64,000 bases of DNA from Octopus vulgaris (taxonomy: Eukaryota), in NCBI GenBank assembly GCA_951406725.2, contig OX597834.1:33914001-33978000 (forward strand), in the 5' to 3' direction. Shown piece after piece: positions 623-59,578 of this stretch. Every line of letters starts with the position of its first letter. The stretch's first letter is position 1. The notes under the pieces were generated by a model. That model saw only the letters and a list, made by a program, of their open reading frames with translations. It did not search any database and was not told where the DNA came from. Made by a program: the position numbers and the translations under genes.

Positions 623-927
623 ACACAAAAGCCGTTCGATTCACTTCAACATTTAAGTTTAATTTGTCAAAATATTTTCAAGTCACTAAAATCATGCGAC
701 CTGTTCACTGACAAAAATCCGTGCTGCATCTCGGATTTTTGTCAGTGAACAGGTCGCGGATTTTAGTGACGAAAATATTTTGACAAATTAAACTTAAATG
801 TTGAAGTGAATCGAACGGCTTTTGTGTGTTTCTTAAATGGCTTACAAACACCTTCCACGCTGCAATTGTTTTCGTTCCAGCACACGATCTCAGATCAAAT
901 CACTTGCTATGCGAGTACATCTCCGTA
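623..927. mobile_element. Fold-back (palindromic) Penelope-like terminal repeat, family 1
   Basis: Near-perfect inverted repeat 623-827 with apex at about 726, plus a unique extension to about 927. Second copy at 4837-4999. Carries a hammerhead-like motif. Confidence 0.6.
738..787 (+). ncRNA. Minimal type I hammerhead ribozyme motif, G3-C8 variant
   Basis: Stem I tttgtca/tgacaaa; core GUGAACA plus one extra G; stem II gtcgc/gtgac; GAAA; palindromic helix III AATATT; cleavage nucleotide U780. Confidence 0.6.
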
Positions 928-1569
928 ATTCTAGAATAACATTGAAGGGTAAGTGTGATAGGCCGGATCTGGCCAGTTTGAAGATAAAACAGGTAGATTC
1001 TTTTGGCTGCATATGACTGGTTTAAATCTAAAAGGTTAAACAACAACAACCAAGGAAGTTGTATATACAGAGTGTGTCTTGTTGCTTAGGTTCAAGTCTG
1101 CTCTGATGGAAAAGGGTGATCTGTGGTCAAATGTGTTCAAAACCTCTTTTTTCAGATTTTATCTTCAGATATGTTTATCTAGGAGTCCACCAGTCAATGT
1201 GTTCTTCCTTTTCTTATTGTGAGAAATGTACTCATACATAATAAAAAAACAAAAAGAAAAAATACACAGGATGGCTGCGGTTGGAATACTTTTGATTGTG
1301 AATCAGCTTAGCCATGGAGAGATTAGCAACAAAGTCATTAATCTTTCCATGATTGCTTGAATCTAATTCAGTAGAACATTTGTGTCAACACAGTCATACA
1401 ATTTCCCGACAATTATGTGACCTTGTTCCAATGTAATTAGCAAATTATTATTTTTATCGTCATTAAGGTGGTAAGATGGTAGGATTGTTGGATCGTCAGA
1501 AAAAATGCTTTGATGTGACCTTGTCCCAACATAATTAACAATATCAGTTTCATTATTTTATCATCGTAA

Positions 1570-1780
1570 GGTGACGAGCTGGCAGAATCGTTAGCACGCC
1601 AGGTGAAATGCTTAGCGGTATTTCATCCATCTTTATGTTGTGAGTTCAAATTCCACCAGGGTTCACTTTACCTTTCAGGGTCAATAAAATAAGTACCAGT
1701 TGAGTACTAGGGTTGATGCGATTGACTTAGCCACTCCCCTGAAATCTCAGCCCTTGTGCCAATAGTAGAAAGGGTTATTT
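1570..1780 (+). mobile_element. tRNA-derived SINE family A (ATT tail)
   Basis: Head ggtgacgagctggcagaatcgttagcac, B-box-like gagttcaaattcc, core gtcaataaaataagtaccag. Many copies in the window. Confidence 0.75.
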
Positions 1781-1999
1781 TATTACCATGATTCTACCAA
1801 TGTTGATTTTTGCCTTTTGTCCTTTGAAGGTTGATAAAATAAATACCAGTTGAGCACTGAGGTCAATGTCATTTAAATAACCCCCCCACACACACACACT
1901 CACACCTGAAATTGCTGGCCTTGTGCCAAAATTTGAAACCATAATTATATTAAAGTGATAAGCTGGCAGATGTTTGCTTTCTCATTGGTTGTGCTTTTT

Positions 2000-2035
<36 letters not shown>

Positions 2036-2310
2036 TAAATGTAATTCTTTTCCCAAATAAATTGCACTTCATAGTCAAGGCTCTGGTGAAGCTATAAGAT
2101 GTTACTCAGGCACTCAACTATGAATCAACTGCATGTTGTAGCAGAAACAGCTGTAAGCCAATGAAGTTCATAAGATAATCATTCATTCCTTTGTCATCAC
2201 ATTTTCTTTTATATATATATATATATCTCATCATCATCATCATTTAACATCTGTTGTCCATGCTGGTATAGGTTGGACAGTTTGACCAGGGCTGGCAAGC
2301 TGAAGACTCC

Positions 2311-7424: not shown

Positions 7425-7482
7425 GGCTACCATTGGTTTCATGTTAAGGAAATATTTTAATATCTTAACAATTTTTCAAGCC
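7425..7482 (-). ncRNA. Hammerhead ribozyme motif, U3-A8 variant, partly decayed
   Basis: Minus strand ggc-TTGAAAA-at-tgttaag..cttaaca-t-GAAA-ccaatggt-A-gcc followed by ttAATAAA. GUA cleavage triplet. Confidence 0.5.
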
Positions 7483-20200: not shown

Positions 20201-20501
20201 TAAATAGATATAACTCGTTAAAATAACAGTTCCACAATGTATCATCTCATTTTGTGTAAAGAAAAGCAGCAAAACAAGGGATATATATTCATTTATATAG
20301 AAGATCAATAATAAAATAACAGATGCAAAAAAGAAATAAACACACAATACAGCAAAAAATAGTATTAAAAATAACCGTTAATGGATCTGGATGTATAAAC
20401 GCCCTTGCGTAAGTTGTATGGCACATGGACACTCGGTCATATTGTAGTGACAAGCCTGAATCACAATGGCAGTAAGAGTAGAAGAGAAAAACAGGTCTTA
20501 C

Positions 20502-22779: not shown

Positions 22780-22819
22780 TATATATATATACATATATAT
22801 ATTTGCATAATTATATATA

Positions 22820-38176: not shown

Positions 38177-38214
<38 letters not shown>

Positions 38215-39169: not shown

Positions 39170-39219
<50 letters not shown>

Positions 39220-39478: not shown

Positions 39479-39517
<39 letters not shown>

Positions 39518-40834: not shown

Positions 40835-41121
40835 ATACATACATACATAATATATATACATATATACACATACAAACACACACACATACATAATATATAT
40901 ACATATATACACATACAAACACACACACATACATAATATATATATACACATACAAACACACACACATACATAATATATATATACACATACAAACACACAC
41001 ACATACATAATATATATACATATATACACATACAAACACACACACATACATAATATATATACATATATACACATACAAACACACACACATACATAATATA
41101 TATACATATATACACATACAA

Positions 41122-41180
<59 letters not shown>
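40835..41180. repeat. Minisatellite of catacaaacacacacacatacataatatatata units ending in (TA)n
   Basis: About seven recognisable units. Confidence 0.85.
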
Positions 41181-41184
<4 letters not shown>

Positions 41185-41835
41185 TTGATGCATTTGACAA
41201 AACATTCTTCAAGGCAATGCCCCAGCATGGCCACAGTCTAATGACTGAAGCAAGCAAAAGACAAAGGATATATGTAGAAGACTACCCCAGGCTACTGTGT
41301 CTGTTTTGGCAGTGTTTTTATGGTTGGATTCCCTTCCTAACACCAACCACCCAGCAGAGTGGACTGACTGCTTTTTACATGGGACCAGCACAGGTGAGGT
41401 CAGTTTTGGCAAGGTTTTTACTGCTGGATGCCCTTCCAAATGCCAACTACTTTACAGTGTGAACTGGATACCTTTTATGTGGCACCAGCACTGGCAGGGT
41501 CACCAAGTAACTTGCAGGATGAGGAACTTTGGAAGATGATGGGGCATTAGAAGAGGGGATCTTGTGTTAGATGAGGAATGATGAGAGTGTGACAAAGGCA
41601 CAAAAAAGTGTCTTGCTATAGAGGAAGAACATGGTTACCTGGCCAGAGAGAGGGAGAGGAAGAGAGAGAGAGAGAAAGAGAGAAAGTACCCACATAATTT
41701 AGTATCGTTACAACAGTCTGATGAATGGTCACATGAAACTCCAAGTAACAGTTTGTGAAGATATTTTGGGCCTTAATAAACCTTTGGTATTCGAGCACTA
41801 TCTTTTGCATTTATCTACTTACTTGTGTGTGTGTT

Positions 41836-41889
<54 letters not shown>

Positions 41890-41933
41890 GTATATGATAT
41901 ATATGTATATAAATATATATGTATGTATGTATG

Positions 41934-41970
<37 letters not shown>

Positions 41971-42357
41971 CTGTATACGAAAGGGAATGTTTTTCCTGCC
42001 TTTTTATTCTTGAAATAATGAAGAAAACTTGATAAGGAATTTTTTTAACAAATGGTAAAAAAACTATCATTAAAAATTCAATAAAGAAATAATTAAAACT
42101 ACAGTTGGATTGGGGGGGGGGCAAATGGGGGAGGGTAGAGTAGAAGGAAATAAGGAAGGAAACTAAAGTATGTCAATTAGCAACAATGAATTAGAGAAAT
42201 ATTCTAATAAAAACTATAAATTAGAAATATTTATTATCATCAAATGAAAGAGGGGTGGAGGGAGAGATGAACAGAGACAATGAAAGGGAGACAGAGAGAG
42301 GGGGGCAAAGAGAGGAAGAGACAAAGAGAAAGACATATCTATACACAGACACAGAGC

Positions 42358-42630
42358 GAGACATGGAGAGAGAGAGAGACATGGAGAGAGAGACATGGAG
42401 AGAGAGAGAGACATGGAGAGAGAGAGAGACATGGAGAGAGAGACATGGAGAGAGAGAGACATGGAGAGAGAGAGACATGGAGAGAGAGAGACATGGAGAG
42501 AGAGAGACATGGAGAGAGACATGGAGAGAGAGAGACATGGAGAGAGAGAGACATGGAGAGAGAGAGAGAGATGGAGATAGAGAGAGAGAGACATGGAGAT
42601 AGAGAGAGAGACATGGAGATAGAGAGAGAG
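42358..42630. repeat. [(GA)n-CATG] minisatellite
   Basis: Repeated gacatggagagagag units. Confidence 0.9.
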
Positions 42631-43420
42631 ACAGACAGACAGATAAACAGACAGACACACACACAAAGTGAGAAAGACATATACAGAGACACAAACAGAA
42701 AGAGAGGGACATGGAGAGAGACAAAGAGAGAGAGAGAAAAACAGGGCAAGAAACAGTGTGAGACATATAGAGAGAAAAACACACAAAAGGAGAAAGATAC
42801 AGAGAGAGACAGACAGAAAGAAACACAAAGAGAGAAAGAGAGAGAGAGACAGAGAAAAAGACAGAGAGAGGCAAAGAAACAGAGAGAGAGAGAGAGAAAT
42901 TCAAAGAGACAGACAGAGAAAGAAAGAGAAGAAAAAGAACATTACCAATGGAAACAACAACAACAACAACGACGACGAGTCGGAGATGTTGACGAATGCA
43001 AAAGAGTAATTATTCTTAATGATTTAATTGAGATGGGAAGGAAATTGGAGATTTGTTCCAGGAAAAAAAAAATGAGAAGAACAAAAAGAAAAAGAGACAT
43101 TAAAAGACAAGTTGCAGGAAGAAAGGAACAAGAAAGGAATAAAGTATAAGAAGAAAAAAAAACCACAAAAAAAACCACCCCCTCCCAAAGGACCGACACC
43201 CCACCTCCCCACTCTCGCAATCGAAATCGCAATAACTGGCTTTTGTTTCCTATTTCTTAAGACCTTATCAAGCCATTTTCTTAAAAAAAAAAAAGTCATT
43301 AACCTTCTGTTTAAAAAACAAAAAAAACCCCCAAAAATGTCTTCTTACACAATTGACTTAATGCCATGATACAGCATTGCTTTACATTCTAGCTTAAAGC
43401 CTATTGACCTATATTGTGTG

Positions 43421-43465
<45 letters not shown>

Positions 43466-43589
43466 GTTTGGTGGTGTTTGGGGTGGGGGGAGGTTAGGTT
43501 TACGATTCCCTGTTGCAGCTAATTGCACTTTTAATTGTGTTGCTAAGGGTAGTTTTGTAAGAAAAGGGAGAGAGTAAACAAAGAATAAA

Positions 43590-44026
43590 TGATGAAGGAA
43601 TGAAGAAGGAATGAAGAAGAAGAAGAAGAAAAAGACAGAGAAGAAGAAGAAGAAGAAGGAGGAGGAGGAGGAGGAGAAGGAGGAGAAGAAGAAGAAATGA
43701 AGAAGAAGAAGGAGAAGAAGAAATGAAGAAGAAGAAGAAGAAGGAGGAGGAGGAGAAGGAGGTGAAGAAGAAATGAAGAAGAAGAAGAAGAAGAAGAAGG
43801 AGAAATGAAGAAGAAGAAGAAGAAGAAGCTGAAGAAGAAGAAAATGAAGAAGATGAAGAAGATGAAGAAGAAGAAGCTGAAGAAACTGAAGAAGATGAAG
43901 ATGAAGATGAAGAAGAAACTGAAGAAGAAGATGTAGAAACTGAAGAAGAAGAAAAAGCTGAAGAAACTGAAGAAGAAGCTGAAGAAGAAACTGAAGAAAA
44001 AGATGAAGAAGAAGAAGAAGAAGAAG

Positions 44027-44056
<30 letters not shown>
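43590..44056. repeat. (GAA)n-rich polypurine tract
   Basis: About 470 bp of interrupted GAA/GGA triplets ending in a pure (GAA) run. Confidence 0.95.
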
Positions 44057-44057
<1 letters not shown>

Positions 44058-44559
44058 GGTGGTAGTTTTGGCAACAGTAGTGGCAGTGGTGATGGTGGTG
44101 GTTCTTATTCTTTAATGGATGAAATGGGCTGGCTGAACCATGAGTGTTCAACAAAATGCTTTGCTCTTTACATTCTGAGTTCAAATTCTGCCAAAGCTAT
44201 CTTTGCCTTTCCTTTTTTCAGGTGTGGAAGTGGCGATGGGTGGGGGTGGGGGGTTAGAGTCAATAAAATAAAGTACCAGTCAAGTACTGGGTTCAATGCA
44301 ATCAAATGAATCCTTTCCCCTCTCAACATTCCAAAGGTCTTAAGCCTAAATGAGAAACAATAAAAAAAACAATGGTTTGGGAGAATCGGTAGAGCATTGG
44401 GTAGAATGCTTTGTGGTATTTGGTCCATCTCTCTAAACTCAGAGTTCAAACCCAGCACAGGTCGACTTGGCCTTTCATCCTTTCAGGGTTGATAAATTAA
44501 GAACCAGTTAAACCGAGAGCATCGACGGATGGATGAATGCGCATCCAGGCTCAGTGGTT

Positions 44560-44779
44560 GCGTAGGTAGGAAGTCGGGGACAAGAAACAGGAAGAAAGAG
44601 TGAGAGAAAGTTGGAGCGAAAGAGTACAAAAGGGGTCGCCACCACCCCCTGCCGGAGCCTTGTGGATCTTTTAGGTGTTTTCGCTCAATAAACACACACA
44701 ACGCCCGGTCTGGGAATCAAAACCGCGATCCTCCGACCGTGAGTCCGCTGCCCCAACCATTGGGCCATTGCGCCTCCAC
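44560..44779 (-). mobile_element. tRNA-headed SINE (further family)
   Basis: Minus-strand head gtggaggcgcaatggcccaatggttggggcagcggactcacg..ggttttgattcccagacc with A/B-box-like motifs. Related head at about 8717-8800. Confidence 0.6.
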
Positions 44780-45347
44780 TGCTGTTGATGCTACTGGTGG
44801 AGGCTGGGGCCTGGCTTGTGTCCTTGCAGGACTTAGGAACCAAATGAAACATCGTCAGCGAGGAACTGACCAAACCTTGAGTTGTCCTCAATGGGTCTAG
44901 GAAGTGGACATACTCAATCAGAAGTCGATTTCCATCAGGTGTGCATGTAATTAAGGCTTATATATTTATTAGACTAATGATTCTATTCACTTGTGGAAGA
45001 AAAAAAATCCCCCAAATTCCAACCAACCAACCAACCAACCAACCAGCCAGCCATACATCAAACATTACTTCAGATATGTAATAGAATAATCACCTGACTG
45101 TCTACACAACTCTCTACTAGACATTTAAAGAGCTTTCTGGAGATATCCACAAGCGGATATATATTACAGTGACAGAACAATAACTACATAATCTTTCTCT
45201 GTCTTTTCTCTCTCTCTCTCTTTCTCCCTCTCTCTCTCTCGGTCATACACACACTAGCAAGTTCATGTGTGAACACTCACATACATAGGCTTGATTAAAC
45301 ATACATAGGTGAAAATGCATATAACATTACATGGAGAGATATACATA

Positions 45348-45382
<35 letters not shown>

Positions 45383-47652
45383 TGACTAAACATACATATA
45401 CATGTATAGACATACATACACATATATGTGTGCGTATATATATATATATATATATATACATACATACGTGTGTATATATATATATATATAGATACATACA
45501 CATATATATATATACATACACACACATATATATATATATATACATACACAGACATATATATGTATACATATATATATATATATATATGTATGTATATATA
45601 CAAAGAAATTTACATACATACACATATATATATTTATATATACATATAGAGAAAAGGTGTAGATATATATGTATAGAGAGAGAGAAAAAGAGAAAGATAT
45701 ATATATATCCATCAAATGCACACACACACACACATACTTGCACATACACACACAAACCCACCCACTCACAATGTCTGATGAGCTAAGTAATTACTAATAG
45801 TAATAAAAAACGAAGACATTGCAAATGAAAAATAATATGTTTTAAAAAAAAAATCCTTCCATCATAAATATAATAACTCTTGTAAAATGATTATGTAAAA
45901 TGTTAATAGGATGTTAATGTAAAAAGTTCATATTCATTGGTAATTGAAATATATATGTAAATAGATTCAGGTATTCAGGTGTTCAACCAGTCTATAATTA
46001 GTGGATGCTTAAAAGGTCTCTACCATTGTGCTGACACTTAGAGACAAGTTCAGATTTTTTTTATTTATTAATATCTTTTATCTTTTACTTGTTTCAGTTA
46101 TTGGACTGTGGCTATGCTGAAGCACCACCTGCAAGTGTTTAGTTGAACAAATCAAACCCACTGCATTTTTGTTTTTTAAGACTAGTACTTATTCTATTGG
46201 TCTTAGAGGTATGTAAATACATCAACACCAATCATCAAATGGTGGTGGTGGGGGAAATACACACACATACACACACACAATAACCTTCTTCCAGTTTCCA
46301 TCTTCCAAACCCACTCACAAGAACTTAGTTGGCCCAGGGCTATAATGGAAAACATTTGCCCAAGGTGCCACACAGTGGGACTGAACCAAAGACCACACAG
46401 TTGGGAAGTAAGTTTCCTAACCACACACCCACACCTGCATCTACATATAGTCTTTTGTTGGTATGTTGAGCATCATTAACGCCCCAGTATATATATGCAT
46501 GTTTGTGTATGTATGTATAACTATCATCATCATCATCGGTTTTACATCCATTTGATGAAGATACACACACACACGCACACACACACATAGAAAGCACACT
46601 TTGTGAAATGGTTGGTATAGGAAGAGCATCCGGCTGTAGAAACCATGCTGAAACAGACTGGAGTCTGGTGCAGCTTCCTAGCCTGCCACCTCTGGTCAAA
46701 CCATCCAATCCATGTCAGCATGGACAATGGACATTGAATGATGATGCTGATGATTCACAAACAAATTAGCACACACACAAGTGCATTAATAATATTTTTC
46801 TTTAACTAAGGCATCAAGCTGACAGAATCATTAGCACACCGGCCAAAATGCTTAGCGTTATTTCATCTGCTGCTACATTCTGAGTTCAAATTCTGTCGAG
46901 GTCAACTTTGCCTTTCATCCTTTCAGGGTCAATAAATTAAGTACCAGTTGCATACCGGGGTTAATCTAATCGACTGCCCCCCTCCACCTCCCCAAAAATT
47001 TCGGGCCTTGTGCTTAGAGTAGAAAAGAATATTTTTGCTTACTTCCCATTCACTTGCTGGATCCAAAAGAAATGAAATAGTGACCTTAGTTTTCACAGTC
47101 CCTTGTAGACCAATGCTTTTTAAGTGGAACCAGCACCAGTGCTATTACATGGCACCAGCATGGGTACTATATATGCAACACCAGTACAGCTGCTTTATAC
47201 ATGATACTGGCACAGGTGCTTTTTATGTGGCGCCAGCATAGGTAGTGAGGTTACCAAATAATTTACCAGACAAGCTGTCACTGCACTGTTCCAAAGTCCC
47301 ACCCATTCTGTCTCGAGTGGTGACCATATACTGCAATAGCTTGGGATTCAAAGCCCTTAAGCTACCTTCTTTTATTTCCTTCCCAACTACTCTCCCACTC
47401 ACCCCTATGCTAAGTGGGTTACCCGGGTATTTCTTCAAAAGTGAGAACTGTGTTCTTGTCTGTCTATCATACTTTAGCCTTTCAACACCCAGCATGAAGC
47501 CATCTTCACTCTCTAGGGAGAGACCTAAGTAGGGTGGGTATCCCAGATGGCCGACATTCTGGGAACCACAATGTGACTCAGTTCTTGTGCAGTGTGGTGG
47601 TTTGTCTGGCTCAGTAATCCTGAGAGCTGTGTTAACGGAGCGCAAAGGCCTG

Positions 47653-47888
47653 GTAAGGTCTCCCATACTGGGCAACTCAAAGGATAGAGGTAGGACCAAT
47701 ATAAACCACCTCTTCCCTGAGGTAAAAATGATGAGCTTGTGTAGGACCAACACCCCCACCTAGTCAACAAGTAAGGTCTCCCATACTGGGCAACTCAAAG
47801 GATAGGGGTGGGACCGATATAAACCACCTCTTGCCTGAGGTAAAAATGCTGAGCCTGTGTAGGACCACCACCTCCACTTAGTCAACAA
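47653..47888. repeat. Tandem duplication of a 118-bp segment of the RTE-5'-like repeat
   Basis: gtaaggtctcccatactgggcaactcaaaggatag starts at 47653 and again at 47771. Confidence 0.85.
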
Positions 47889-48619
47889 GCAAATTTACAG
47901 GAGCATCAATGACAATTCAAAACTAACAAGACATGGAAGATGAAGGCCTTCCCTCTTGACATTGCATAACAGCTGTAAATGAGTGTCACTGTTATACAAG
48001 CAGTGTCATTCATTTCCAATTAGTTATAGAGAGACGTAGACAGATTGAAAGGGCAGAAACGATAGGAGCAGGGTAGGAGATGGGGTGAGGAAGGGAGTAT
48101 ATTGTGGACAAGGAAGTTGTTGTCATGATACCAGTAACATCACTACCTCCACCACCATTACCACCACCGTCACCACCGCCACCATCATCATCATCACGAA
48201 CACTCTTGTTGCGTTAATAACACATTTATGGTTTTTCTTCTAGCAAGTAAATTTTTCTTTCGCAGTTTTATATTATTAAATTTTTTGGTTTAAACAAGAT
48301 AAATATGGTGGTGGCAGTGGGAGGAGGAGGAGAAGGGACAGACAACTAATCTTCACATCCACCACTGCCACCGCCGCTGCCAACACCGGCATTTTAGCCA
48401 ATAACAAGGAAAAAAAAAATCAATGTAAGTTGTAGACTAAAAGCAAAATAGAAAAGCAACAAAAACAAAGAAAAAACATAAAAGATCAACAAGAAGGAAA
48501 CACGAGGATGGAAGACAGAAAAAAAGAGAGAAGAGAAATAATTCAAGATGTAAGAATGCAATTACTGATGCATTAACAGTGTCTTGTTTGTTTCACTACT
48601 GAAGTGAACTAGGAAATAT

Positions 48620-48765
48620 CATATATATACACACACACACACATATATACATATATATAGGTATGCATATATATATATATCCACATATATATACATATAA
48701 ATATATATATATATATATATCCACATATACATACATATATATATCCACATATACATATATACAAT

Positions 48766-48799
<34 letters not shown>

Positions 48800-48845
48800 C
48801 CACATATACATACATACACATATATATATATATATATATCCACAT

Positions 48846-48881
<36 letters not shown>

Positions 48882-48887
48882 CCACAT

Positions 48888-48919
<32 letters not shown>

Positions 48920-49064
48920 CCACATATACATACATATATATACATATATATATATACATATATATACACATACATATATATACATACATACACACATATA
49001 CATACATACACATATACATACATACATATATATACATACATACATATATACATACATACATATA

Positions 49065-49098
<34 letters not shown>

Positions 49099-49115
49099 CA
49101 TATATACATACATAC

Positions 49116-49153
<38 letters not shown>

Positions 49154-49276
49154 ATACATATATATACATACATATATATATATATACATACATATATATA
49201 TATATACATACATACATATATATTCATATATATACATACATACATATACACACATATATACATACACACACATATA

Positions 49277-49314
<38 letters not shown>

Positions 49315-49320
49315 CACATA
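48620..49320. repeat. (TA)/(TACA) compound microsatellite
   Basis: Direct inspection. Confidence 0.9.
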
Positions 49321-52129
49321 TCAGGATCTAGCTAAATCCAGCTGATCCATCCCCTCCATCACCCACTGTTTGCATCCTCCCTTATTCCCATCTTCTCATA
49401 CCTTCACAGTTTCCTCTGGCACCCCATCACTACCTTCTTTTATCTCCTTCCCAACTACTCCCACCCACCCCTATACAATAGTGAGACTTCTATAGTGAGA
49501 CCCCTGTGCTTGTCTCTCTATCATATTTTAGCCTTTTAACACCCGGCATGAAGCCATCTTCCTTTTCTCAAATACCCACCACCACTACCACCAGCTTTTT
49601 CCTTTTTCTTTTTCCCTATTCTTTTTTCATTTTGCAAGTTACCCGACAACCTCATAAGTGCCAGAATCCTGCAAAAAGGCACCCAGTAAAACTCTGTGAA
49701 GTGGTTGGCAATAGGAAGGGCATTCAGCTGTAGAAACCATGGCAAAGCAGACAATTGGAACTTGGCACAGCCGTGTGGCTCACTGAATCATGTCAAATCA
49801 TTCAAGTTATGTGACCATGGAACACGGAATTTAAATAATGATGACAATGGCAATGATGATGATGATGATGACAATGATCTCATAGAGAAAGACATGGTAT
49901 TTACATCAGTCTATTACATACAGTGTTAGCTAAAATCTATAGATATATTTTAAAATACATCGTGAGATTGAATCAAAGCAATTAATCAAACAAGCTACCA
50001 AGAATGTATTTGTCATCAAAATCAGCAGCAGCATCGTTTTAATGTCCACTTTTCCATGCTTGCATGGGTCAGACACAATTCACTGAGGCCAATTTTCTTC
50101 AGCTGGATGCCTTTCACGTTGCCAATCCTCACCTATTTCCAAGCAAGGCAAGATATTTATTTCCCCATGCCAAACATGTTTTCAGGAAAGAAAGATTGGA
50201 AATGAAGGACACTGCTTATGTGACAGTGATGCTTTTTTACGACTATCACATGATGTCAAAACAAGGAAACACATAGAGACATATAGTGTAGAAAGTTTTT
50301 GCCAAAAATACTTGATACAGTCATGATATTTAAAAAAAGATTTTCTTAGAATAAAAATTATTAGTTATACAAAACAAAATTTTTAAAAATATGGAATGAT
50401 ACTATTTATGTGTGTGTGTCTCTGTGTGTGTATAGATTATATATACAATATATATTATATACATATAAATTCATAATATATATATATACTATATGATATA
50501 TATATATTCTACATATATTTTATATATATCATGATGACGATGATGATATTTATATATATATAATCATGCCAGTGGTACGTAAAAAGCACCAACTGATCGT
50601 GGCTGTTGCCAGCCTCCTCTGGCCCCTGTGCCAGTGGCACATAAAAAGCACCCACTACACTCACGGAGTGGTTGGCATTAGGAAAGGCATCCAGCTGTAG
50701 AAACACTGCCAGATCAGATTGGAGCCTGGTGCAGCCTCCTGGCTTCCCAGACACTGGTTGAACCATCCAACCCATGCTAGCATGGAAAACGAACGTTAAA
50801 CGACGATGATGATAATACATATATATATATATATATTTGATAGATTTTTATCAGTTTCTGTCTACCAAATCCACCCACAAGGTTTTGGTCAGCTCGCTGC
50901 CATAGTAGAAAGAACTTGCCTTACATACCACACACTAAGATTGAACCTGAAGCCAAGTGGTTAGAAACACCTGCAGCTATAGCCACACTTACACCTATGA
51001 CATGCATCCATCATCGTTTTATGTCCACTTTCCATGCTGGCATGGGTTGGACGGTTTGACACGAAGCTAGCTAGCAGGGGAGATGTCCAAACTCCCACTG
51101 TCTGTTGCAGCATGGTTTCTACAACCGGATGCCTTTCCTAATGCCAACCACTTAAGAGAGGGCGGGAGGTGCTTTGTGTGTGCCACTGGCATGGGTGCAT
51201 TGATTCAGCACCAGCATAGGTGTGTTAGCACAGCACTGGCACAGGTGCCATTTAAGTGGCACCAACATCTGAAAGAACAAACCTGTATGTGTAGAAGACA
51301 CACTGGTTTTACTTAACCTGACATGGTTTAGCAAGTGCAGCAGATCACCACACGCAAATTAGTCTCAAGAATTTCTCTAATCATTTCAATAATAGCAAAG
51401 TAATAAAGAGTATCTCCATGGATAGTCAAAGTGGGTACTCGGTCATTTGTATAGGATTGAAATTAAACCGGTTGACCCTTTGCTGTCTTTTTTATTTTGT
51501 TCTTGTTTATAGTTTTATATGTAGACATCTTGTTTACATCTGTTTATTACAAACAGCATTGGCTAAAAACAACAACAACAACAACAACAACAAACAGAAA
51601 TTATTGATATTAGTCTGTAACATGAAAATAAATATAACTGAAGAGGAGGAAGACGAGCGGAAGAGAAATGCATGAAGGAAACGGAGAAGACAAAGGAAAT
51701 ATTTGAAAGGGGGGAGTAAAGGGGTAAAAGTAAGAGGAAAGACAAGGGAAAAAAAAATCGAAGATTTGTCTGGTATCGAATATTTCTGATGTTTTGTGTC
51801 ATTGCTTAATAAAAACAAGAGGGGAAAACAAAAAAAGCCATCACCAATCTAATTATCTGGTTCTAATTAACTATGAAGGAGAGTAATGAAAAAAACAAGT
51901 TTACAGCGAACAGCTTGAAAATAAGAGCTGCTAAAACAGCATGGAAGGAAAGGTGGGGAATTGGTTTAGAGAGAAACACCTGAGACTGTTTTTATGGAAA
52001 ATATTGTTTGTTAGACACATCTCAGTTTGAACATGTGTGTGTATATATGTATATAAGTGTGTGCATGTGTGCATATATGTGTATGTATAATTATTATGTA
52101 TATATATATGTATAATTATTATGTATATA

Positions 52130-52169
<40 letters not shown>

Positions 52170-52545
52170 CATATACATATATATATATAATTATTTGTGT
52201 ATATGTGTAATATGTTCATTATTATTATTATTATTATCAATACATATATAAACATATATATATATGTACATACAGTAATGTAAGTACATATACATATGTA
52301 TAAATGTGTGTATGTATATATATATATAAAGTTGTAATGAAAGCTCTAGCCATTTTCTTTTTAAAGTAAATATCAAGTTAGATTTTGAAGGTGTTTAACT
52401 TCTCAATTCTATTTGAAATACAACAAAAACATCAATATATCATTTCCTTCCATTTTCTTTCAGATTTTATCAATTTGATCATAACTGAAGTTGTTCACTT
52501 CATGTTCACTTCAAGCAAAGAATACATTCGTCATTTTATTCTTTA

Positions 52546-52938
52546 CCAGCAGTATTGCCCGTCGTTGCTCAGGTTTATTTCAACCCTTTAGAATTGGAAT
52601 TTTTGAAAAGTAAATATTTTGAATTATGTAGCTTGTTATTCTGTTTAAGTGAACATTTTTCTGGTTCAAATACACCGAAAAATGGTGACACAGCAGTCAA
52701 AAAACGTAAAAAATTGGGATTTTCATAGAAAAATAGCACCTTTTTGATGTAAATAATTTTTGGTGTTAACATGGTCCGATTTGAATTTTTTCTTCTATGG
52801 AAGAAAGAGCAAGCCTTCTTCTACCATACTCTTAATTTTGGTCAACTTGCATGGTAGGGTCTCGAAGGAGATAGTGTTAGTTGAAGGCTACCAAACCTGC
52901 CATACACAGACAACTTTAGCTTTATATATATATAGAGA
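52546..52938 (-). mobile_element. Non-autonomous Helitron
   Basis: Minus strand begins A|TCtctatatatatataaag and ends with a GC-rich imperfect hairpin cctgagcaacgacggg followed by CTGG|T (CTRR). Inserted between A and T with no TSD. Confidence 0.65.
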
Positions 52939-53079
52939 TGAATTTCAAAAAAGTAACAGTACAAGTGTAGCAACAAAGACACTCCAAAGCATTAATGGTT
53001 CATATCACGGTGCGGCATCTTAGAGCAAGTGTCTTCTCCTATAGCCCTGGGCCAACCAAAGCCTTGTGGGAAGATTTAG

Positions 53080-53232
53080 TAGGTTCATCCGGGCCCTTAA
53101 ACAACAGGAAGTTAAGTTTGTTCTTGGAAACATCTACCCCAACTTTATGTAGACCTCTCAGATATTTTGGCAAGGTATTAAACAGCTTAAGGCCTTTGAA
53201 TCCCAAGCTATTGCAGTATATGGCCATCACTC
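53080..53232 (-). mobile_element. CR1-like LINE ORF2 C-terminal fragment
   Basis: YCNSLGFKGLKLFNTLPKYLR...KNKLNFLL..PDEP matches the CR1-type NS...G.RLFN.LP..IR...FK..LD..L..PDEP tail. Related piece at about 47240-47365. Confidence 0.6.
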
Positions 53233-53293
53233 AAGACACACATTCACACATACATAATTGCTAGTAAGTGAAAATATTTGCAGGTTTACCTAC

Positions 53294-53398
53294 CTTCAGT
53301 GTTTCCCTCAAGATGAAAGCAATCAGGACTTCATCCAGCCGATTCTTACGCGTTACCAAGTCTTTCGAAAGATCTGTTACAGATCCATTCTGACACAA
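53294..53398 (-). CDS. MYO3: Myosin III kinase exon (subdomains V-VIa)
   Basis: 105 bp, ttccAG|TTG...AAG|GTAGGT. Translates LCQNGSVTDLSKDLVTRKNRLDEVLIAFILRETLK, similar to MYO3A LCSGGSVTDLVK...LIAYILHEAL. Confidence 0.95.
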
Positions 53399-53469
53399 CT
53401 GGAAAAGAGGAAAATAAACAAATGATTCATCTTTCAGATGTGGAACAATGAATGAAGGAATCTCTACAT

Positions 53470-53739
53470 CAAAGGTCCTCAACCAATTTTTTTTTACCTG
53501 TGGACCCCACTTTGATTTCTATTTTACTCGGGTGGACCTTTATAGTCATTTGGTGTTTAAAAAAATCCTATTGTATTTTCATAATTAAATATTATTAGAA
53601 ATTGTAATTAAAAAAGAAATTTGTTGAAATATTTTGAGTGTTGAAAAAGTATAAGCAATCTTATTGCAGATAAATTTTAACAAGAAAATCTTATAAGGAC
53701 CCACAAGGGTTCATGTGGGACCCTGGTTGAGAAACACAG
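53470..53739. mobile_element. hAT-Charlie-type MITE
   Basis: Decayed TIRs caaaggtcctcaacc / ggttgagaaacacag. Perfect 8-bp TSD ctctacat at 53462-53469 and 53740-53747. Confidence 0.75.
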
Positions 53740-54030
53740 CTCTACATATACAGAGAGAGAGGGGGAGAGAGAGAGAGCATATACAATGAACAACAAAATG
53801 AACAAAGGGGGATGCAGAGGAGGAGGAAGGGGAGGGCAGAGGAGGAAAAGAAGGAGGAAGAGGAATATGGGAAGAGGAGATGAGGGGATGGAAGAAGGGG
53901 AGGGATGAAGAGGAGGGCAAGGAGGGGAGGAGGAAGAGGAGGGGGGGGGGAGAAAATGATAGTAACAAAGACACAAAGAAAGGCTAAGAAATTCAAAGGA
54001 GATGGAAAGAAAAGAAAAGCCATCACTCAC

Positions 54031-54203
54031 CTCCATGACAATCCATAACTGGTCATCCAGTTTGTTTTCTTTCTTCAGGTACAATCCATAGAATTGTGGG
54101 AAATTAGGGTTATTACTCACAGCCTTTAGAATCTGATATTCCTGCTCGATCTCTTCAACGGTTTCGTGGATGTTCTCCAATATTTTGGCAGCAGCCTTTT
54201 GGC
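54031..54203 (-). CDS. MYO3: Myosin III kinase exon (subdomains II-V)
   Basis: 173 bp, gttgcAG|GC...GAG|GTGAGT. Translates (G)QKAAAKILENIHETVEEIEQEYQILKAVSNNPNFPQFYGLYLKKENKLDDQLWIVME, with the catalytic Lys and alphaC Glu. Phase matches both neighbours. Confidence 0.95.
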
Positions 54204-54307
54204 CTGCAACAATATCAAAGACAGATGGAATAATGCCTGTCTGTATCAGTCATCACTCATACTCCCCCCACCATTCTCCTATATGTCATGTGTCACTGGT
54301 CATCCAC

Positions 54308-54612
54308 TGGCACCTCATCGGTTATGATCGGATCAATGGAACAGCCTGCTCATGAAATCAATACGCAAGTGGCTGAGCACTCCACAGACACGTGTACCCT
54401 TAATGTACATCTCAGGGAGATTCAGTGTGACAAAGAATGTGACAAGGCTAACTCTTTTAAATACAAGCATCACTCATTTTTGTCAGATGAGTGAACTGTT
54501 ATCAATGTGAAATAAAGTGTCTTGCTCAAGGACATAATGAGCCACCAGGAATTGAACACATGGCCTCACAATTCATGAGCCAAATGTCCTAAACACTAAG
54601 GCATGTATCTTC
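54308..54612 (-). mobile_element. tRNA-derived SINE family D
   Basis: Shared body gtggctgagcactccacagacacgtgtaccct. Other copies at about 27550-27718, 28221-28478, 59960-60257 and 61880-62050. Confidence 0.7.
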
Positions 54613-55414
54613 ACAGCAATCACTAAATCCACTCTCCATCCCTCTCCAGTCTTTACAGAGGTTACCTCACTTCCCCTCACCTCAACCATTGCTCAACTTT
54701 CACTCCACTCATATGCTCTTGCAAACTCCATCCATCTACCCACAATCTTGGTTCCTCTATTCCATTCATTCCTACTCACCTTGTACCCTGAGGGTCACCT
54801 TCTCATTCATTACCACCATTTTTATCTCTTTCCAGCCCCACCTAATCATTCCTACTCTCTCTTCTAAAGTGCATCTCCTCTACAACAAGAAACCAAAGGA
54901 CCCCTTCCCTCGTACTTTTACCCATGATCTTCTAGTGTACCTCAGGGTTTATAGTCCTACAAGCCTCATGGCACCACATTAGTGCAGGTGGCATAAAGAA
55001 GCACCCAGTATACACTTTAAAGTGAATGGCATTTAGAAGGACATCTACATATAGAAACCAGGCCAAAGCAAACACAGGAGTGATGCAGTCCTTAGGCTTA
55101 TCAGAACTCATGAAACCTCCAACTGATGCCTTCATGTATGGCAAGCATGGCAGTGCTCAAGCATGGCCTGAACATAGACAAAGGGTTAAATTTAGTAAAA
55201 GAGTAATATTGATGATGATGATGATGATGGTGATGATGACAATGACAAGAATGACAATGGTGAGCATGACCATTAAAACGACGGTGGTTGTGGTGATAAT
55301 GATGATTGTAGTGGTGGTGGTAATGATGGTGTTGATGACAGAGAAGGATGACAGTCCTACTGATGACAACGATGATGATGGTGATGATAGATGTGACAAT
55401 AAGGATCATCTCAC

Positions 55415-55553
55415 CTGTTTGTTTGTTTCTCACAGCGTACACCTCTCCATAGGTGCCTTCTCCAACCAGTTCCTGTAGCTCCCATATTTCCGTGGGATCT
55501 TTAAGCTGGTCGAAATTAACTATCTTGCTGTACTTGGAATACATTTTTAACAT
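55415..55553 (-). CDS. MYO3: Myosin III (kinase-myosin, ninaC/MYO3A-like), first visible coding exon; whole exon 55415-55618, ATG at 55553 or 55544
   Basis: Translates MLKMYSKYSKIVNFDQLKDPTEIWELQELVGEGTYGEVYAVRNKQT-G, with the Gly-rich loop GEGTYG and resemblance to the MYO3A N-terminus ([23 protein letters not shown]). Acceptor ttttcAG at 55619-55620, donor G|GTGAGA at 55413-55414, phase 1. Confidence 0.9.
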
Positions 55554-57981
55554 ATCTGCCCTTTGAACATCACGTTTAGGACTTCCCAATGGGGCACGGC
55601 GCTTGGAGCTGACTCCCACTGAAAATAGAAAAATTTGAAAACAAATGTCAATATTGATCATTCAAAACGAATTGTGAAACAGATGAGGGAAAATATAAAA
55701 CAGATGCATCAGATTTGAAAACAGATTGAAAATTTGAAAACAGACAAGGGGAAATATAAAACAGATGCAGAAAATTTGAAAACAGAAGTAAATATTAGTG
55801 ACTGAAAATAGATTATGAAACAGATGTGAGGAAAAACCAACAGATGTAGAAAATGTAAAATGGATGGACAGATGTAAAACAGATGTGAAATAGATGCTCT
55901 TTTTTTATATTCTTTTTGTCTCAAACAAGAATTAAGGTCTCTGTAGCATAAAGGACTTCAAAAACTGAAAAGAAGGGGCCAACAAATTCAAAAGATGTTG
56001 ATTAATAGGCATGGCTGTGTGGTAAGAAATTTGCTTCCCAACCATATAGTTCCAGGTTCAGTCCCACATATAATGTATGCATGTATGTGTGTGCATATAT
56101 ATATATATATAAATGAGAAACTGCTTTCAGTTTCTGTATGCCAAATCCACTCATAAGGCTTTGATCAGCCTGAGAGTGTAGTAGTAGACGTCAGTGTAGT
56201 GGGTGCTTTTTATGTGCCACTGGCACAGAGGCCAGAGGAAGCTGGCAACAGCCATGATCAGTTGGTGGTCTTTACGTGCCACTGGCACAGAACCTAGTCG
56301 AGGCGGTGCTGGCATCAGCCATGTTTGGATGGTGCTTTTTACGTGCCACTGGCATGGGTATCACAACAACAATTTCCATTTGATTTTTATTTTGATGTTA
56401 ATGTACTTGACTCAATAGGTCTCCTCAAGCACAGCAGATCGCCCTATGATCCAAGGTACTTTTGAATGGACTGGGGCTGGTTATGCATAACTGGTGTAGG
56501 ATACAGCCGGGAACTCACTTTATTTGCTGGGTCACAGAGCATCTCGAAATAAATACGGTAACAAATGGGTTCAATGATGATGACAATGATGATGATGAAA
56601 AAGATGTAAAGCAAAAACATTAATGAGTAATTTAAATATTGTTATGTCTAGGTAGGGTCATTGTGCCAATATCAATAACACATGCACTGGTTCAATTCCA
56701 CTCCTTTATTATTAGTCAGTTGGCTACATATTTATGCAACTAATTGATCGTTTGTTTAATTTGTTGGCTAAATAGTCAATGGTTTCTTCTGTTGTTGTTT
56801 TTGTTTGTCAAAGTTCTTCCATCACCATTTGAAATATTATCAGTGTCTATCTTTTCCAATTCGCTACGGAGGCCATGTTTAACTTGCAAAAATGAAGTAA
56901 AATATTAACCTTTAACAGAAGTGAAAATTGGGTTTGTCATCAAAGCCTAAGATTAAGTGAATGAGTTACACTCAAAGATGTGAGTAGTCGTAGCTGAGTC
57001 TCAAAGACAACTGAGTTGGTTAGAGTCATACATAATGCCAGGCTCAGCAGGCACACAAATCCAGGCTCAACCAATGAGCCAAACACTCAGTATTCATTCA
57101 TAGAAGACAACACACACGCACACACACACACACAGAGGCTCTAACACAAGCGTGCATGCACACACAGCTGCACAAACACACATACACACAGAAACACAAG
57201 TACAGAGACAGATACAAACACACAAACACAGGCTCTAACACAAGTGCGCATGCACACACACACATATACAAGCATAAACATACACATGCAGTCGAGTACA
57301 AATTCACACAGACAGGTATACATGCACACACATATAGGTATGCATATATACACACACACATACACAAAGACACGAACATACACACATGCAGAGAGGCACA
57401 AACACACACAAGTAGATACACAGATACAATCAAGATTGAGTTTTATTATTTTCTTTTCTTACACTTTTAGATTTCCATTGATTATTATTCTCCAGCATTT
57501 ATATATATATATCTTATAGATAATCCCGTTTATAAACTCTACACACCTCCAGATGCTCAAACAGAATAAAAAACAAAAATAGTAATAACAACAACCCAGA
57601 AAATTTCACCAAAAGTCATCGAACTGGAGCAAAAAAATCAATAGGAACAGCAGATTCAGGTTGAAACATGAGAATAAATGCGAAATTAAATATCTTCTCA
57701 ACCCCAAATTTTTTCTATATTTAATATTTGCTGCGCACCTTTCGTGCAGCAGACTTTTTATGGAAGCCACAAAGTGCTGAGATTTCTTTATCATCAAAAT
57801 GATGAGGAAGTTATATAAATGCAGGTTCTATTAAATTTTCCTTATTTTTCTTTATTTATTATTTCGTAATATTGAAGAATGGGTTGGGTAGGAAGAGATT
57901 GTATTTTATATCATTTTCAAACATGCTATCACATGGATTTAATAGTTTTACAAATGAATATATATATATATATATATATAT

Positions 57982-58470
57982 ATCATCATCATCATCATCA
58001 TCATCGTTTAATGTCCGCTTTCCATGCTGGCATGGGTTGGACTGTTTGATTGAGGGCTGTTGAGCCTGAAGGCTGCACCATGCTCCAATCTGATCTGGCA
58101 AGTTTTCTACAGATGGATGCCCTTCCTAATGCCAACCACTCCAAGTGTGTAGTGGGCGCTTTTACATGCCACCGGCATGAGGGCCAGTTACGTGGTACTG
58201 GCAATGACCACGCTCAAATGGTGTTTTTTACGTGCCACCTGCACAGGAGCCAGTCTGGCTGCACTGGCAATAACCACGCTTGAATGTTGTTTTTCACGTG
58301 CTACCAGCACAGGTGCCGGTAAGACAATGCTGGCAACGATCATGCTTGAATGGTGCTTTTTGCATGCCACCGGCATGGGGAGCAAATCAATGGCCCTGGC
58401 AACGATCACGCTTGGATGTTGCTTTTAACGTTCTACTGGCACGGGTGCCAATCAGGCGGTACTGTCATCG
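57982..58470 (-). mobile_element. Family C retroposon with a diverged internal tandem array
   Basis: (CAT)n tail, conserved 3' block and about five degenerate units related to the 65-bp repeat at 6719-7113. Confidence 0.65.
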
Positions 58471-59250
58471 GCAAATCAAAATCGCTGATGGATGGATAGA
58501 CGGACAGACAGACAGATAGATAGGCACAGTTGTGAGGTTAGAAGAATGCTTCCCAACCACATGGTTCACACACAAAGACACAAACATACGCACATGCAGA
58601 GAGGTACAAACGCACACAAGTAGAGACACAGACACAGATATTAAAGCATTGTGTGGATTTGGTAGATGGAAAGTGAAAGAAGCCAGTGTGTGTGTGTGTA
58701 CATAAGCAGAGAGAGAGAGAGAGAGAGATGGACAGGTATGTACGTATGTCCATGTGTACATATGTCTGTGTTTGTCCCACACCACTGCTTGACAACTGAT
58801 GTTGGTTTGTTTACATCCCCATAACTTAGCTGTTTAGCAAAGGCGAGCAATACAATAAGTACCAGGCTTTAAAAACAAAACCATAGGGGTCAATTTTTAC
58901 TTGACTAAAACTCTAAAGGCAGTATTCCAGCATGGCTGCAGTCCAATTACCAAAAAAAGTAAAAAGTACAAGATATATATATCGTCATCACCATCGTTTA
59001 ACATCCGCCTTCCCTGCTGAGAGACAGTTTGTCAGGAGCCAGCCAGGCAGAGGCCTGCACCAGACTTCCGTAACCATTTTGGCAGAATTTTTACAGCTAG
59101 ATACCCTTCCTAACACCAACCACTCAGAAGATCAGAAGAGAGGACCTAATGCTTTTTACATGGCCCAAGCACAGGCAATGTCAGTTTTGGCAAGGTTTTT
59201 ACAGTTGCCAAAACTGACCTCACCTATATATTGGAAAAAAAAAAATATAT

Positions 59251-59573
59251 ACTGTTGTGCCTGGGGAGAGTCATTTTCTTTTTGTGCCTTATACCACTCA
59301 CCGGTAAAATTTCCACTTTTTTTCTTATTTTTATTGACCTAAAATTTTTGTTGCATCTTGCAACCTTTTCAATAGTTTTGAGTCAAAACTATTGAAAAGG
59401 TTGCAAGACGCAATGAAAATTTTGGGAAAATAAAAATAAGAAATAAGTAGAAATTTTACCAGTGAGTGTGTTACATTATGAGGCACAAAAAGAAAATAAC
59501 TCTCCCCAGACACAATAGAATATGCTTCAACACATGAACTCATATAAAGAATCTTGCAAACCAAACCCCAAAA

Positions 59574-59578
<5 letters not shown>
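59251..59578. mobile_element. Fold-back Penelope-like repeat family 2, second copy (hammerhead motif 59389-59425)
   Basis: Palindrome about 59251-59520 with apex ttttgagtcaaaa. The long arm runs into (TA)n. Motif cta-TTGAAAA-g-gttgc..gcaat-GAAA-att-t-tgg. Confidence 0.7.

What the first reader, a model, noticed from the sequence alone, without database searches (positions are those of the whole stretch)
623..59578. Intronic collection of minimal hammerhead ribozymes showing three covarying versions of the 3-8 core pair
Seen: about ten motifs in at least five repeat families fit the type I hammerhead order stem I - core - stem II - GAAA - helix III - UH - stem I. Cores are CUGANGA (20100-20200, 35433-35467), GUGAACA (738-787, 4867-4917) and UUGAAAA (7425-7482, 26634-26670, 26784-26820, 59389-59425). 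Positions 3 and 8 change together (C-G, G-C, U-A), the known tertiary Watson-Crick pair of the core. Most have one extra purine after A9, and helix III is a short palindrome (AATATT, AATT, ACGT, ACAATTGT). Established: minimal hammerheads with palindromic helix III, thought to act as dimers, occur in Penelope-like element terminal repeats. Inference: this genome carries diversified ribozyme-bearing non-autonomous PLE/retrozyme-like families that a CUGANGA-only search would miss. I cannot tell whether these particular families are already described.
Basis: partly seen in the sequence, partly recalled or inferred. Interest (0 to 1): 0.8.

Follow-up and report, generated by a model that had tools for sequence, protein, structure and literature searches.

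The report
Octopus Penelope hammerheads swap core pair
These motifs are hammerhead-type, predicted self-cutting RNA folds at the ends of broken Penelope-like jumping genes scattered through an octopus gene's introns; this is a known arrangement, but sister elements here carry four different versions of one key base pair of the catalytic core, including a G-C version I could not find reported in nature.

Summary
The motifs are real. A descriptor leaving positions 3 and 8 free finds 6 strict hits in the window, all Watson-Crick at 3-8 (shuffles 0.05); a relaxed one finds 9, two dead at G12. Most lie in introns of a myosin-III gene of an octopus genome. They are not mainly non-autonomous elements: four of five families are the 3' ends (pLTRs) of reverse transcriptase + GIY-YIG Penelope-like elements, often as hairpins with the PLE tail. 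PLE hammerheads, palindromic helix III, the extra base after A9 and U3-A8 are published (PMC4209133). Not found in the papers I could search: a high-copy family fixed for G3-C8, and one PLE clade holding G3-C8, U3-A8, C3-G8 and an older U3·G8 subfamily that may be the stepping stone. The youngest sister has A9C. Short copies keep the uncut ribozyme. Cleavage is untested, and a key paper (Lünse 2016) was unavailable. One earlier scan note mentions G3-C8 in a phage (unchecked). New variant of a known kind.

The parts
623..732 (-). F1 inverted arm; hammerhead core at 708-702 (G3-C8) with a 2-nt insertion before GAAA
   Evidence: self-BLAST 623-834 vs 827-616, 93%; hairpin 623-827 folds at -152 kcal/mol
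733..929 (+). F1 pLTR 3' end: hammerhead 738-787 (GUGAACA-G, stem II GUCGC/GUGAC, helix III AAUAUU, predicted cut after 780), ORF start at 837 (MAYKHLPRCNC...), first end 869, tail to 929
   Evidence: the last bases match the start of the ORF-bearing copy L339
4837..4999 (+). Second F1 copy (other loop II), short inverted arm 4837-4877, hammerhead 4867-4917 (G3-C8), ends at the first end without tail
7425..7482 (-). F2 hammerhead (U3-A8; helix III ACCAAUGGU); 3' region of a Neptune-type PLE
   Evidence: GIY-YIG frame upstream in L219, collinear over 825 nt with L215
20100..20200 (-). F3 hammerhead (C3-G8; 10-bp stem II, 54-nt loop, helix III ACAAUUGU); 3' region of a Neptune-type PLE
   Evidence: GIY-YIG ~0.4 kb upstream in 4 of 25 loci, collinear with the window copy
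26424..26623 (-). F4 inverted arm with tail; core at 26615 has G5A (predicted dead)
26624..26883 (+). F4 sense arm with hammerhead 26634-26670 (UUGAAAA-G, GUUGC/GCAAC, AAUU, predicted cut after 26667), then a tandem partial copy 26779-26883 with G12A
   Evidence: hairpin 26475-26782 folds at -212 kcal/mol
34402..34619 (+). F5 copy, U4C core (CCGACGA), helix III broken
35345..35540 (-). F5 copy, ~190 nt with fixed ends; hammerhead 35433-35467 (C3-G8, GAGC/GCUC, ACGU)
59247..59380 (-). F4 inverted arm; motif 59339-59372 has G12A
59381..59575 (+). F4 sense arm, hammerhead 59389-59425 (U3-A8), tail ending in (TA)n
20501..55553 (-). Host myosin-III gene (kinase-domain exons); the gene runs on past window position 1
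   Evidence: tblastn with kinase + myosin-head proteins P0122, P0133, P0148; splice boundaries

Best explanation
The motifs are minimal type-I hammerhead folds in the terminal repeat (pLTR) of Penelope-like retrotransposons, left in these introns as short, mostly hairpin-shaped 3'-end copies, and the 3-8 core pair is likely kept by selection on the parent elements for a predicted, untested self-cleavage that would need a partner copy or the element's own protein. Steps. Shown: in long copies the order is RT, Cys linker, GIY-YIG, ~0.5-1 kb UTR, hammerhead, first ~30 codons of the ORF, with two alternative 3' ends. Shown: sister families fix G3-C8 (F1), U3-A8 (F4) and C3-G8 (F6), and an older F4 subfamily is mostly U3.G8. 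Shown: short copies keep the whole ribozyme and their 5' ends pile up 10-20 nt before stem I. Inferred: that site is the pLTR transcription start; the uncut RNA is reverse-transcribed from internal sites in the ORF start into AT-rich targets, as shown in vitro for a lizard PLE. Inferred: the ribozyme acts on tandem element transcripts, not on the myosin-III pre-mRNA. Inferred: the U-A state arose from C-G through the U.G wobble.
For: Descriptor against shuffles. ORF links: PLE frames upstream in 13 of 30 F1 loci picked by UTR and a ~1000-aa copy with one in-frame stop; 8 of 30 F4 loci; 4 of 25 F3 loci; 1 of 25 F2 loci. The window copy's end equals the ORF start. Inverted partner within 1.5 kb in 22/30 F1, 25/30 F4 and 10/25 F2 loci. 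State fixed per family: F1 27 of 28 G-C, F4 32 of 33 U-A in copies picked by upstream UTR, F6 21 of 21 C-G. F1+(F4,F6) is one protein clade, 96/97 and 99/98. Eight clade motifs: 48 of 48 cells paired, 3-8 types GC 3, CG 2, UA 2, UG 1; 0/500 shuffles, slid controls 17-60% paired. Old-type F4 rows: 14 U.G, 8 U-A, 2 C-G of 24; young-type 77 U-A of 81. With columns 3 and 8 removed and F1/F6 as outgroups, U-A copies nest within U.G ones (93/85; young group 100/100). 5' ends: 15 of 46 F4 copies at -10; 21 of 45 F1 copies within a 5-nt span; none starts at the cut site among F1, F4 and F5 pieces in the 800-kb sample. Papers: PLE hammerheads, dimers, low activity (PMC4209133); tail, internal priming, protein-assisted cleavage, partial C3G/G8C rescue (PMC11167929).
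Against: No cleavage or expression test. The youngest, intact sister F6 has A9C in 21 of 21 copies, about half of F5 copies have U4C (13 of 28 read CCGA), and a U.G subfamily amplified, so the core tolerates changes expected to lower activity. Helix III of F1 and F4 is too weak to pair unaided (-0.2 and +2.2 kcal/mol), and the free dimer MFE is not the hammerhead for F1, F4, F5 or F6. The 8-row covariation set was hand-picked for fitting the fold and its rows are related. The U.G-first order rests on ~190 columns, an unstarred node and a poorly aligned F6 outgroup; the old set was fetched with a G8-bearing query, one old-clade copy (L394) is U-A, and rows include both arms of hairpins. No route to G3-C8 was found. 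G3-C8 gave no strict hit in the random 800 kb, though F1 occurred in 4 of 80 stretches. Hairpin junctions could add to the 5'-end pile-up.
Confidence: 0.7

Rival explanations
1. Same elements, but the fold is kept for a non-cutting role (a binding or folding site for the PLE protein, or 5'-UTR structure next to the promoter and start codon), with cleavage slow or dispensable.
For: A9C is fixed in the most recently active family and also seen in a metagenome relative (L367); U4C and U.G subfamilies amplified; copies derive from uncut RNA; hammerhead mutants did not affect insertion in vitro for PAc (PMC11167929).
Against: U4, G5, A6, G12, A13, A14 and A15.1 are invariant across the 8 clade motifs while the 3-8 pair, which positions the catalytic G8 ribose, is compensated rather than lost (PMC8495972). 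An active-site-like shape needed for binding would look the same, so this only weakens the rival.
Confidence: 0.2
2. The families are non-autonomous SINE- or retrozyme-like elements that only borrow PLE enzymes.
For: F5 has fixed ends (~190 nt) and no ORF was found upstream in the loci held; most F1 and F4 copies are short with shared 5' ends, so they may spread like SINEs; true tandem ~360-nt retrozyme-like arrays exist elsewhere in the genome.
Against: Four of five families run on into RT/GIY-YIG frames; longer F5 versions with CA-rich upstream sequence exist (L170, L248); direct tandem partners are rare (0-2 per 25-30 loci).
Confidence: 0.06
3. The host has co-opted the motifs to cut or regulate the myosin-III pre-mRNA.
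For: The window holds 6 strict motifs per 64 kb against 20 per 800 kb in the sample; three intact or near-intact ones (7425, 20100, 35433) are on the transcribed strand.
Against: Orientation is mixed; the F1 and F4 arms would be locked in long perfect hairpins on either strand; several copies carry core-killing changes; the same families occur genome-wide.
Confidence: 0.03
4. Chance matches in AT-rich, hairpin-rich DNA.
For: Low-complexity non-WC hits do occur at a low rate.
Against: 6 against 0.05 and 20 against 0.4 expected; same position in homologous elements across families and species.
Confidence: 0.01

Closest known systems
Minimal type-I hammerheads in PLE pLTRs (Cervera & De la Peña 2014, PMC4209133)
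   Same: Type-I order, extra base between 9 and 10.1, G10.1-C11.1, palindromic helix III, mostly single truncated copies, opposite-strand pairs; U3-A8 in Schistosoma Cercyon elements; one U3.G8 row (Saccoglossus) in Fig. S3.
   Different: None of the 56 rows of its Fig. S3 has G3-C8 and no cephalopod is listed; it does not trace the pair across sister families or report A9C.
PAc (Poseidon of Anolis; Frangieh et al. 2024, PMC11167929)
   Same: Hammerhead beside the start codon in the pLTR, two internal RT start sites giving an optional tail, AT-rich targets, uncut RNA as template; engineered C3G/G8C partly active.
   Different: There G3-C8 is a laboratory double mutant; here it is the natural state of a high-copy family. 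F1/F4/F6 have a Cys linker, unlike Poseidon, and a ~58-nt tail.
Nematis and Neptune clades of EN+ PLEs (Craig et al. 2021, PMC8557442)
   Same: C-terminal GIY-YIG with a CX2-5CxxC linker, partial tandems, inverted truncated copies, (TA)n targets. F2 and F3 match the Neptune-like family seen at window 17.5 kb; the F1/F4/F6 linker and EN resemble the Nematis rows of Figs S2/S7 by eye.
   Different: Clade not tested by tree against reference elements; F1 and F6 RTs have a longer stretch between motifs A and B than the Nematis rows shown. That paper lists only Naiads for Octopus in the rows I saw.
Natural hammerhead core variants (Perreault et al. 2011, PMC3088659)
   Same: C3-G8 to U3-A8 covariation in nature; U10.1.U11.1 mismatch as in F2.
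   Different: The section read reports no natural G3-C8.
Animal non-LTR retrozymes (PMC7229834; bioRxiv 10.64898/2026.07.22.740005)
   Same: Type-I hammerheads, likely PLE-derived; such ~360-nt arrays exist elsewhere in this genome (L091, L344).
   Different: The window motifs are not in tandem monomer arrays and belong to protein-coding elements.

Membership tests
Minimal type-I hammerhead (PLE type) | Stem I - core - stem II - GAAA - helix III - UH - stem I order | tested here: met
   6 strict, 9 relaxed motifs; shuffles 0.05
Minimal type-I hammerhead (PLE type) | Paired positions 3 and 8 | tested here: met
   6 of 6 in the window, 20 of 21 in 800 kb WC with both positions free; GC/CG/UA/UG across the clade
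Minimal type-I hammerhead (PLE type) | Invariant U4 G5 A6 A9 G12 A13 A14 A15.1 U16.1 | tested here: inconclusive
   Met in F1, F2, F4; A9C fixed in F6, U4C common in F3 and F5, G12A or G5A in single window copies
Minimal type-I hammerhead (PLE type) | Extra base after A9, G10.1-C11.1, palindromic helix III | tested here: met
   Met in F1, F4, F5; partly in F2 (U.U, odd palindrome), F3 (no extra base) and F6 (AGAACU)
Minimal type-I hammerhead (PLE type) | Self-cleavage after position 17 (dimer or protein-assisted) | not testable with these tools
   No assay; public runs were contigs only
EN+ Penelope-like element | Single ORF with RT and C-terminal GIY-YIG | tested here: met
   F1, F4, F6 1311-1312 aa in 8 of 11 stretches fetched; EN side only for F2 and F3; read from motifs, Pfam gave only a sub-threshold GIY-YIG hit for the Neptune-like family; none found for F5
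EN+ Penelope-like element | pLTR holding the hammerhead and ORF start, partial tandems, inverted truncated copies, optional tail | tested here: met
Nematis clade (F1, F4, F6) | CX2-5CxxC linker before the EN | tested here: met
   CQSNCAVC (F1), CTNDNCMVC (F4), CTDNYCTVC (F6); shared with Neptune
Nematis clade (F1, F4, F6) | RT phylogeny with reference Nematis elements | not tested
   No reference sequences held; resemblance by eye to supplement rows; no BLAST similarity to the window's Neptune-like RT piece
Non-LTR retrozyme | Tandem 170-400-nt monomers, each with a hammerhead | tested here: not met
   Direct partners in 0-2 of 25-30 loci per family
Non-LTR retrozyme | No protein-coding capacity | tested here: not met
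   F1-F4 are ends of RT/EN elements; open for F5

The most novel reading that the evidence does not exclude
One octopus Penelope clade preserves a fossil record of a ribozyme active site changing letter by letter: C3-G8, then an amplified U3.G8 stepping-stone subfamily, then U3-A8, beside the first natural high-copy G3-C8 hammerhead, while the currently active sister thrives with A9C. The short copies are full reverse transcripts of uncut, pLTR-started RNA. Together this would show that PLE hammerheads are protein-licensed, weakly constrained ribozymes, and supply an intact 1312-aa element to test it.
Probability: 0.35. Interest if true: 0.7.

Novelty: new variant of a known kind. Interest (0 to 1): 0.5.

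Why it matters
What PLE hammerheads do is an open question: they cut poorly alone and were dispensable for insertion in the one in-vitro system. This genome offers matched natural variants of the catalytic core (G-C, U-A, U.G, C-G, A9C) in closely related elements, one of them with many identical intact ORFs, so activity, protein dependence and the need for cleavage can be compared directly. It also shows that CUGANGA-only surveys undercount: strict hits extrapolate to roughly 40,000 loci (19,000-69,000, from 11 of 80 stretches), and three of the window's five families would be missed. Natural G3-C8 would extend the known natural core variants, if it is not already in Lünse et al. 2016.

Tried and rejected
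Rfam scan: the 150 best of 322 matches shown were microRNA/snoRNA models on simple repeats and hairpins, none at gathering score and no hammerhead among them. Repeat finder swamped by microsatellites. The Neptune-like remnant at 17.5 kb and 20 extended relatives gave no hammerhead directly 3' of their ORFs by the strict descriptor; older, decayed family, link left open. Pfam does not name the F1/F6 proteins. A first search for the host protein used the wrong exon coordinates and found nothing. Splicing as the cause of the F1 5'-end pile-up: a branch-point-like CTAAC, pyrimidines and CAG precede the site, but no matching donor was found; left open. An extra 5' G (cap copying) is seen at many pile-up ends but hairpin junctions can supply it; not used as evidence. 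Expression: no RNA holder listed; four contig sets of guessed kind cover the repeat but cannot show ends, strand or level; not used. Free two-strand folding does not favour the hammerhead dimer except for helix III in F2 and F3. Of 12 metagenome relatives only 3 showed a hammerhead-like motif 3' of the ORF (L369 C3-G8, L367 U3-A8 with C9, L371 C3-G8 with U15.1-A16.1, the last read by eye); none G3-C8; several contigs end too early. F5 ORF not found. Print searches for natural G3-C8 or octopus PLE hammerheads; G3-C8 appeared only as an engineered variant (PMC11167929, PMC8495972, PMC3884650). Lünse 2016 is not held.

Full report
Setting. The window is G000:C21:33914001-33978000 in a 2.8-Gb genome. 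A database protein labelled Octopus vulgaris (P0002) is 96% identical to one of the elements studied, so the animal is very likely an octopus. A myosin-III gene (kinase plus myosin head by Pfam on its homologues) runs on the - strand with exons at 55553, 54204, 53407, 33215, 26399 and 20647 and continues beyond position 1. All motifs except the 59.3-kb pair are therefore intronic.

Observation. With positions 3 and 8 left free, a strict type-I descriptor gives 6 hits, two each of G-C, U-A and C-G; 60 shuffles average 0.05 paired and 0.18 unpaired hits. A relaxed version gives 9, two of them G12A. In 80 evenly placed 10-kb stretches, 20 of 21 hits are paired at 3-8 (16 C-G, 4 U-A; 11 stretches, 7 hits in one array) against 0.4 in 8 shuffles; no strict G-C hit occurred there.

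Families. Genome searches scored only the best 40 of 709 to 2757 candidates per family, so counts are lower bounds. In the random sample F1 occurred in 4 of 80 stretches, F4-like pieces in 9 (one is the F6 ORF start) and F5 in 11. Copies share 3' ends, have two alternative end points, often abut (TA)n and often carry an inverted copy: 22/30 F1, 25/30 F4, 10/25 F2, 2/25 F3, 2/25 F5. These are the PLE hallmarks described in PMC8557442 (passages) and PMC11167929 (parts 1-2 of 4).

The parent elements. Walking upstream from F4 reached RT, thumb, Cys linker and GIY-YIG frames in 8 of 30 loci, the hammerhead lying about 0.7 kb after the stop. For F1, 13 of 30 loci did so, about 1.0 kb after the stop. 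L339 holds ~1000 codons with one in-frame stop and a frame break near its start, and begins with the same bases that end the window copy; the window copy encodes MAYKHLPRCNC... from 837. F3 has a GIY-YIG frame ~0.4 kb upstream in 4 of 25 loci and F2 in 1 of 25, both Neptune-like. F5 (~190 nt, fixed ends) has longer CA-rich versions but no ORF in what I held. A search with the F1 RT returned 32 F1-like and 118 rows at 63-65% identity. The latter are a third sister, F6, with 1311-1312-aa frames in 8 of the 11 stretches fetched and a hammerhead at both pLTRs that reads CUGAUGC-G, that is C3-G8 with A9C, in 21 of 21 copies; an older relative (L291) has A9.

The 3-8 pair across the clade. F1+(F4,F6) is one protein clade (96/97; F4+F6 99/98; 22 rows, F4 a 169-aa fragment). 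States are fixed within families even in copies picked by upstream UTR: F1 27/28 G-C, F4 32/33 U-A. For 8 hand-picked clade motifs, including two metagenome relatives, all 48 cells pair; the 3-8 pair shows GC 3, CG 2, UA 2, UG 1, and four of five stem II pairs change on both sides. The rows are related and chosen for fit, so this describes rather than proves. An older F4 subfamily, defined by sites outside the core, is mostly U3.G8: 14 U.G, 8 U-A, 2 C-G of 24 rows, against 77 U-A of 81 young rows. Position 3 is not in a CpG, so this is not simple decay. With columns 3 and 8 dropped and F1 and F6 included, U.G copies sit in the basal polytomy, a group of mostly U-A copies nests inside (93/85) and the young group is derived (100/100). 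This fits C-G to U.G to U-A, but the support is moderate, the F6 alignment is poor, the query carried G8, and only 10 of the young copies were used. No intermediate toward G3-C8 was seen.

How the short copies arise. 15 of 46 F4 copies start exactly 10 nt before stem I and 21 of 45 F1 copies within a 5-nt span about 13-17 nt before it; all 28 F5 matches start within 5 nt of one site (one or two F5 matches may be spurious). None of the F1, F4 or F5 pieces in the random sample starts at the predicted cut. I infer a pLTR transcription start and reverse transcription of uncut RNA from internal sites, as shown for PAc. Helix III of F1 and F4 is too weak to pair unaided, and the hairpin copies would sequester the motif, so activity in the host intron is unlikely. 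The best reading is conditional cleavage in element transcripts (0.7); a non-cutting structural role is the main rival (0.2).

Against what is known. PMC4209133 (main text parts 1-2 of 4; supplement file 2 parts 1-2 of 3; file 1 could not be searched) already reports PLE hammerheads, the extra base, the palindrome, dimers and U3-A8. Of the 56 rows of its Fig. S3, 2 are U3-A8, 1 is U3.G8, none G3-C8, none a cephalopod. PMC3088659 (section 8 and passages) reports natural U3-A8 only. G3-C8 appears as an engineered variant in PMC11167929, PMC8495972 and PMC3884650 (passages for the last two). PMC7229834, PMC6765202 and PMC6155905 were seen as passages and the 2026 retrozyme preprint as part 1 of 5 (its supplements are closed). 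Nine searches found no natural G3-C8 and no octopus PLE hammerhead survey, but figures are not searchable, and Lünse et al. 2016, a survey of PLE hammerhead variants, was seen only as a reference title; it or Repbase may already hold this. An earlier scan note (e1-5996897) mentions G3-C8 in a phage array; I did not check it. Hammerhead numbering and the Neptune/Nematis/Poseidon labels for frames read here are partly from recall and by-eye comparison, not from a tree with references.

Verdict. Real feature, known kind of element and ribozyme, with a likely unreported core variant and an unusually complete series of core states in sister elements. Interest 0.5.

Noticed in passing
L352-L362 (e.g. 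G000:C15:42991500-43000000): A very young PLE family (F6) with near-identical intact 1311-1312-aa ORFs in partial tandems and inverted pairs; 118 of 150 scored RT matches; its hammerhead has A9C. A candidate for in-vitro PLE work.
   Followed up: partly
L091:2272-4763; L344:5112-5514; L240:7071-7772: Two retrozyme-like tandem families with ~360-nt monomers and canonical-type hammerheads sharing loop CAAUA: one C3-G8 (359 nt x 5.6), one U3-A8 (361-362 nt). They share little sequence outside the ribozyme.
   Followed up: partly
window 17496-17800 (+): Remnant of a Neptune-like PLE ORF (thumb/linker region) of an old family with 7945 first-look candidates; no hammerhead found 3' of its relatives.
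   Followed up: partly
F5 and F3 copies (L241-L265, L171-L195): U4C (CCGA) is common: 13 of 28 F5 and at least 6 of 26 F3 copies.
   Followed up: partly
L017:1455-1490 (F1 upstream of stem I): Branch-point-like CTAAC, pyrimidine tract and CAG just before the 5'-end pile-up, recalling the intron next to the D. virilis Penelope hammerhead; no donor found.
   Followed up: partly
L086:1-995: An F4 copy sits next to an antisense Poseidon-type RT frame of at least 300 aa, a further PLE clade in this genome.
   Followed up: no
L371 (metagenome contig), 3' of the ORF: Hammerhead-like motif with U15.1-A16.1, read by eye.
   Followed up: no
window 6636-7220: 65-nt tandem repeat, several copies at 91-97% identity.
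   Followed up: no
window 11349-11434: Long hairpin of another dispersed repeat that follows (ATT)n tracts; related copies at 9923, 10146, 11793, 27167, 63801.
   Followed up: no
all loci held: At least a dozen further hammerhead families, mostly C3-G8, plus two more U3-A8 types (stem II GGUC, GGUUC); G3-C8 was seen only in F1.
   Followed up: no
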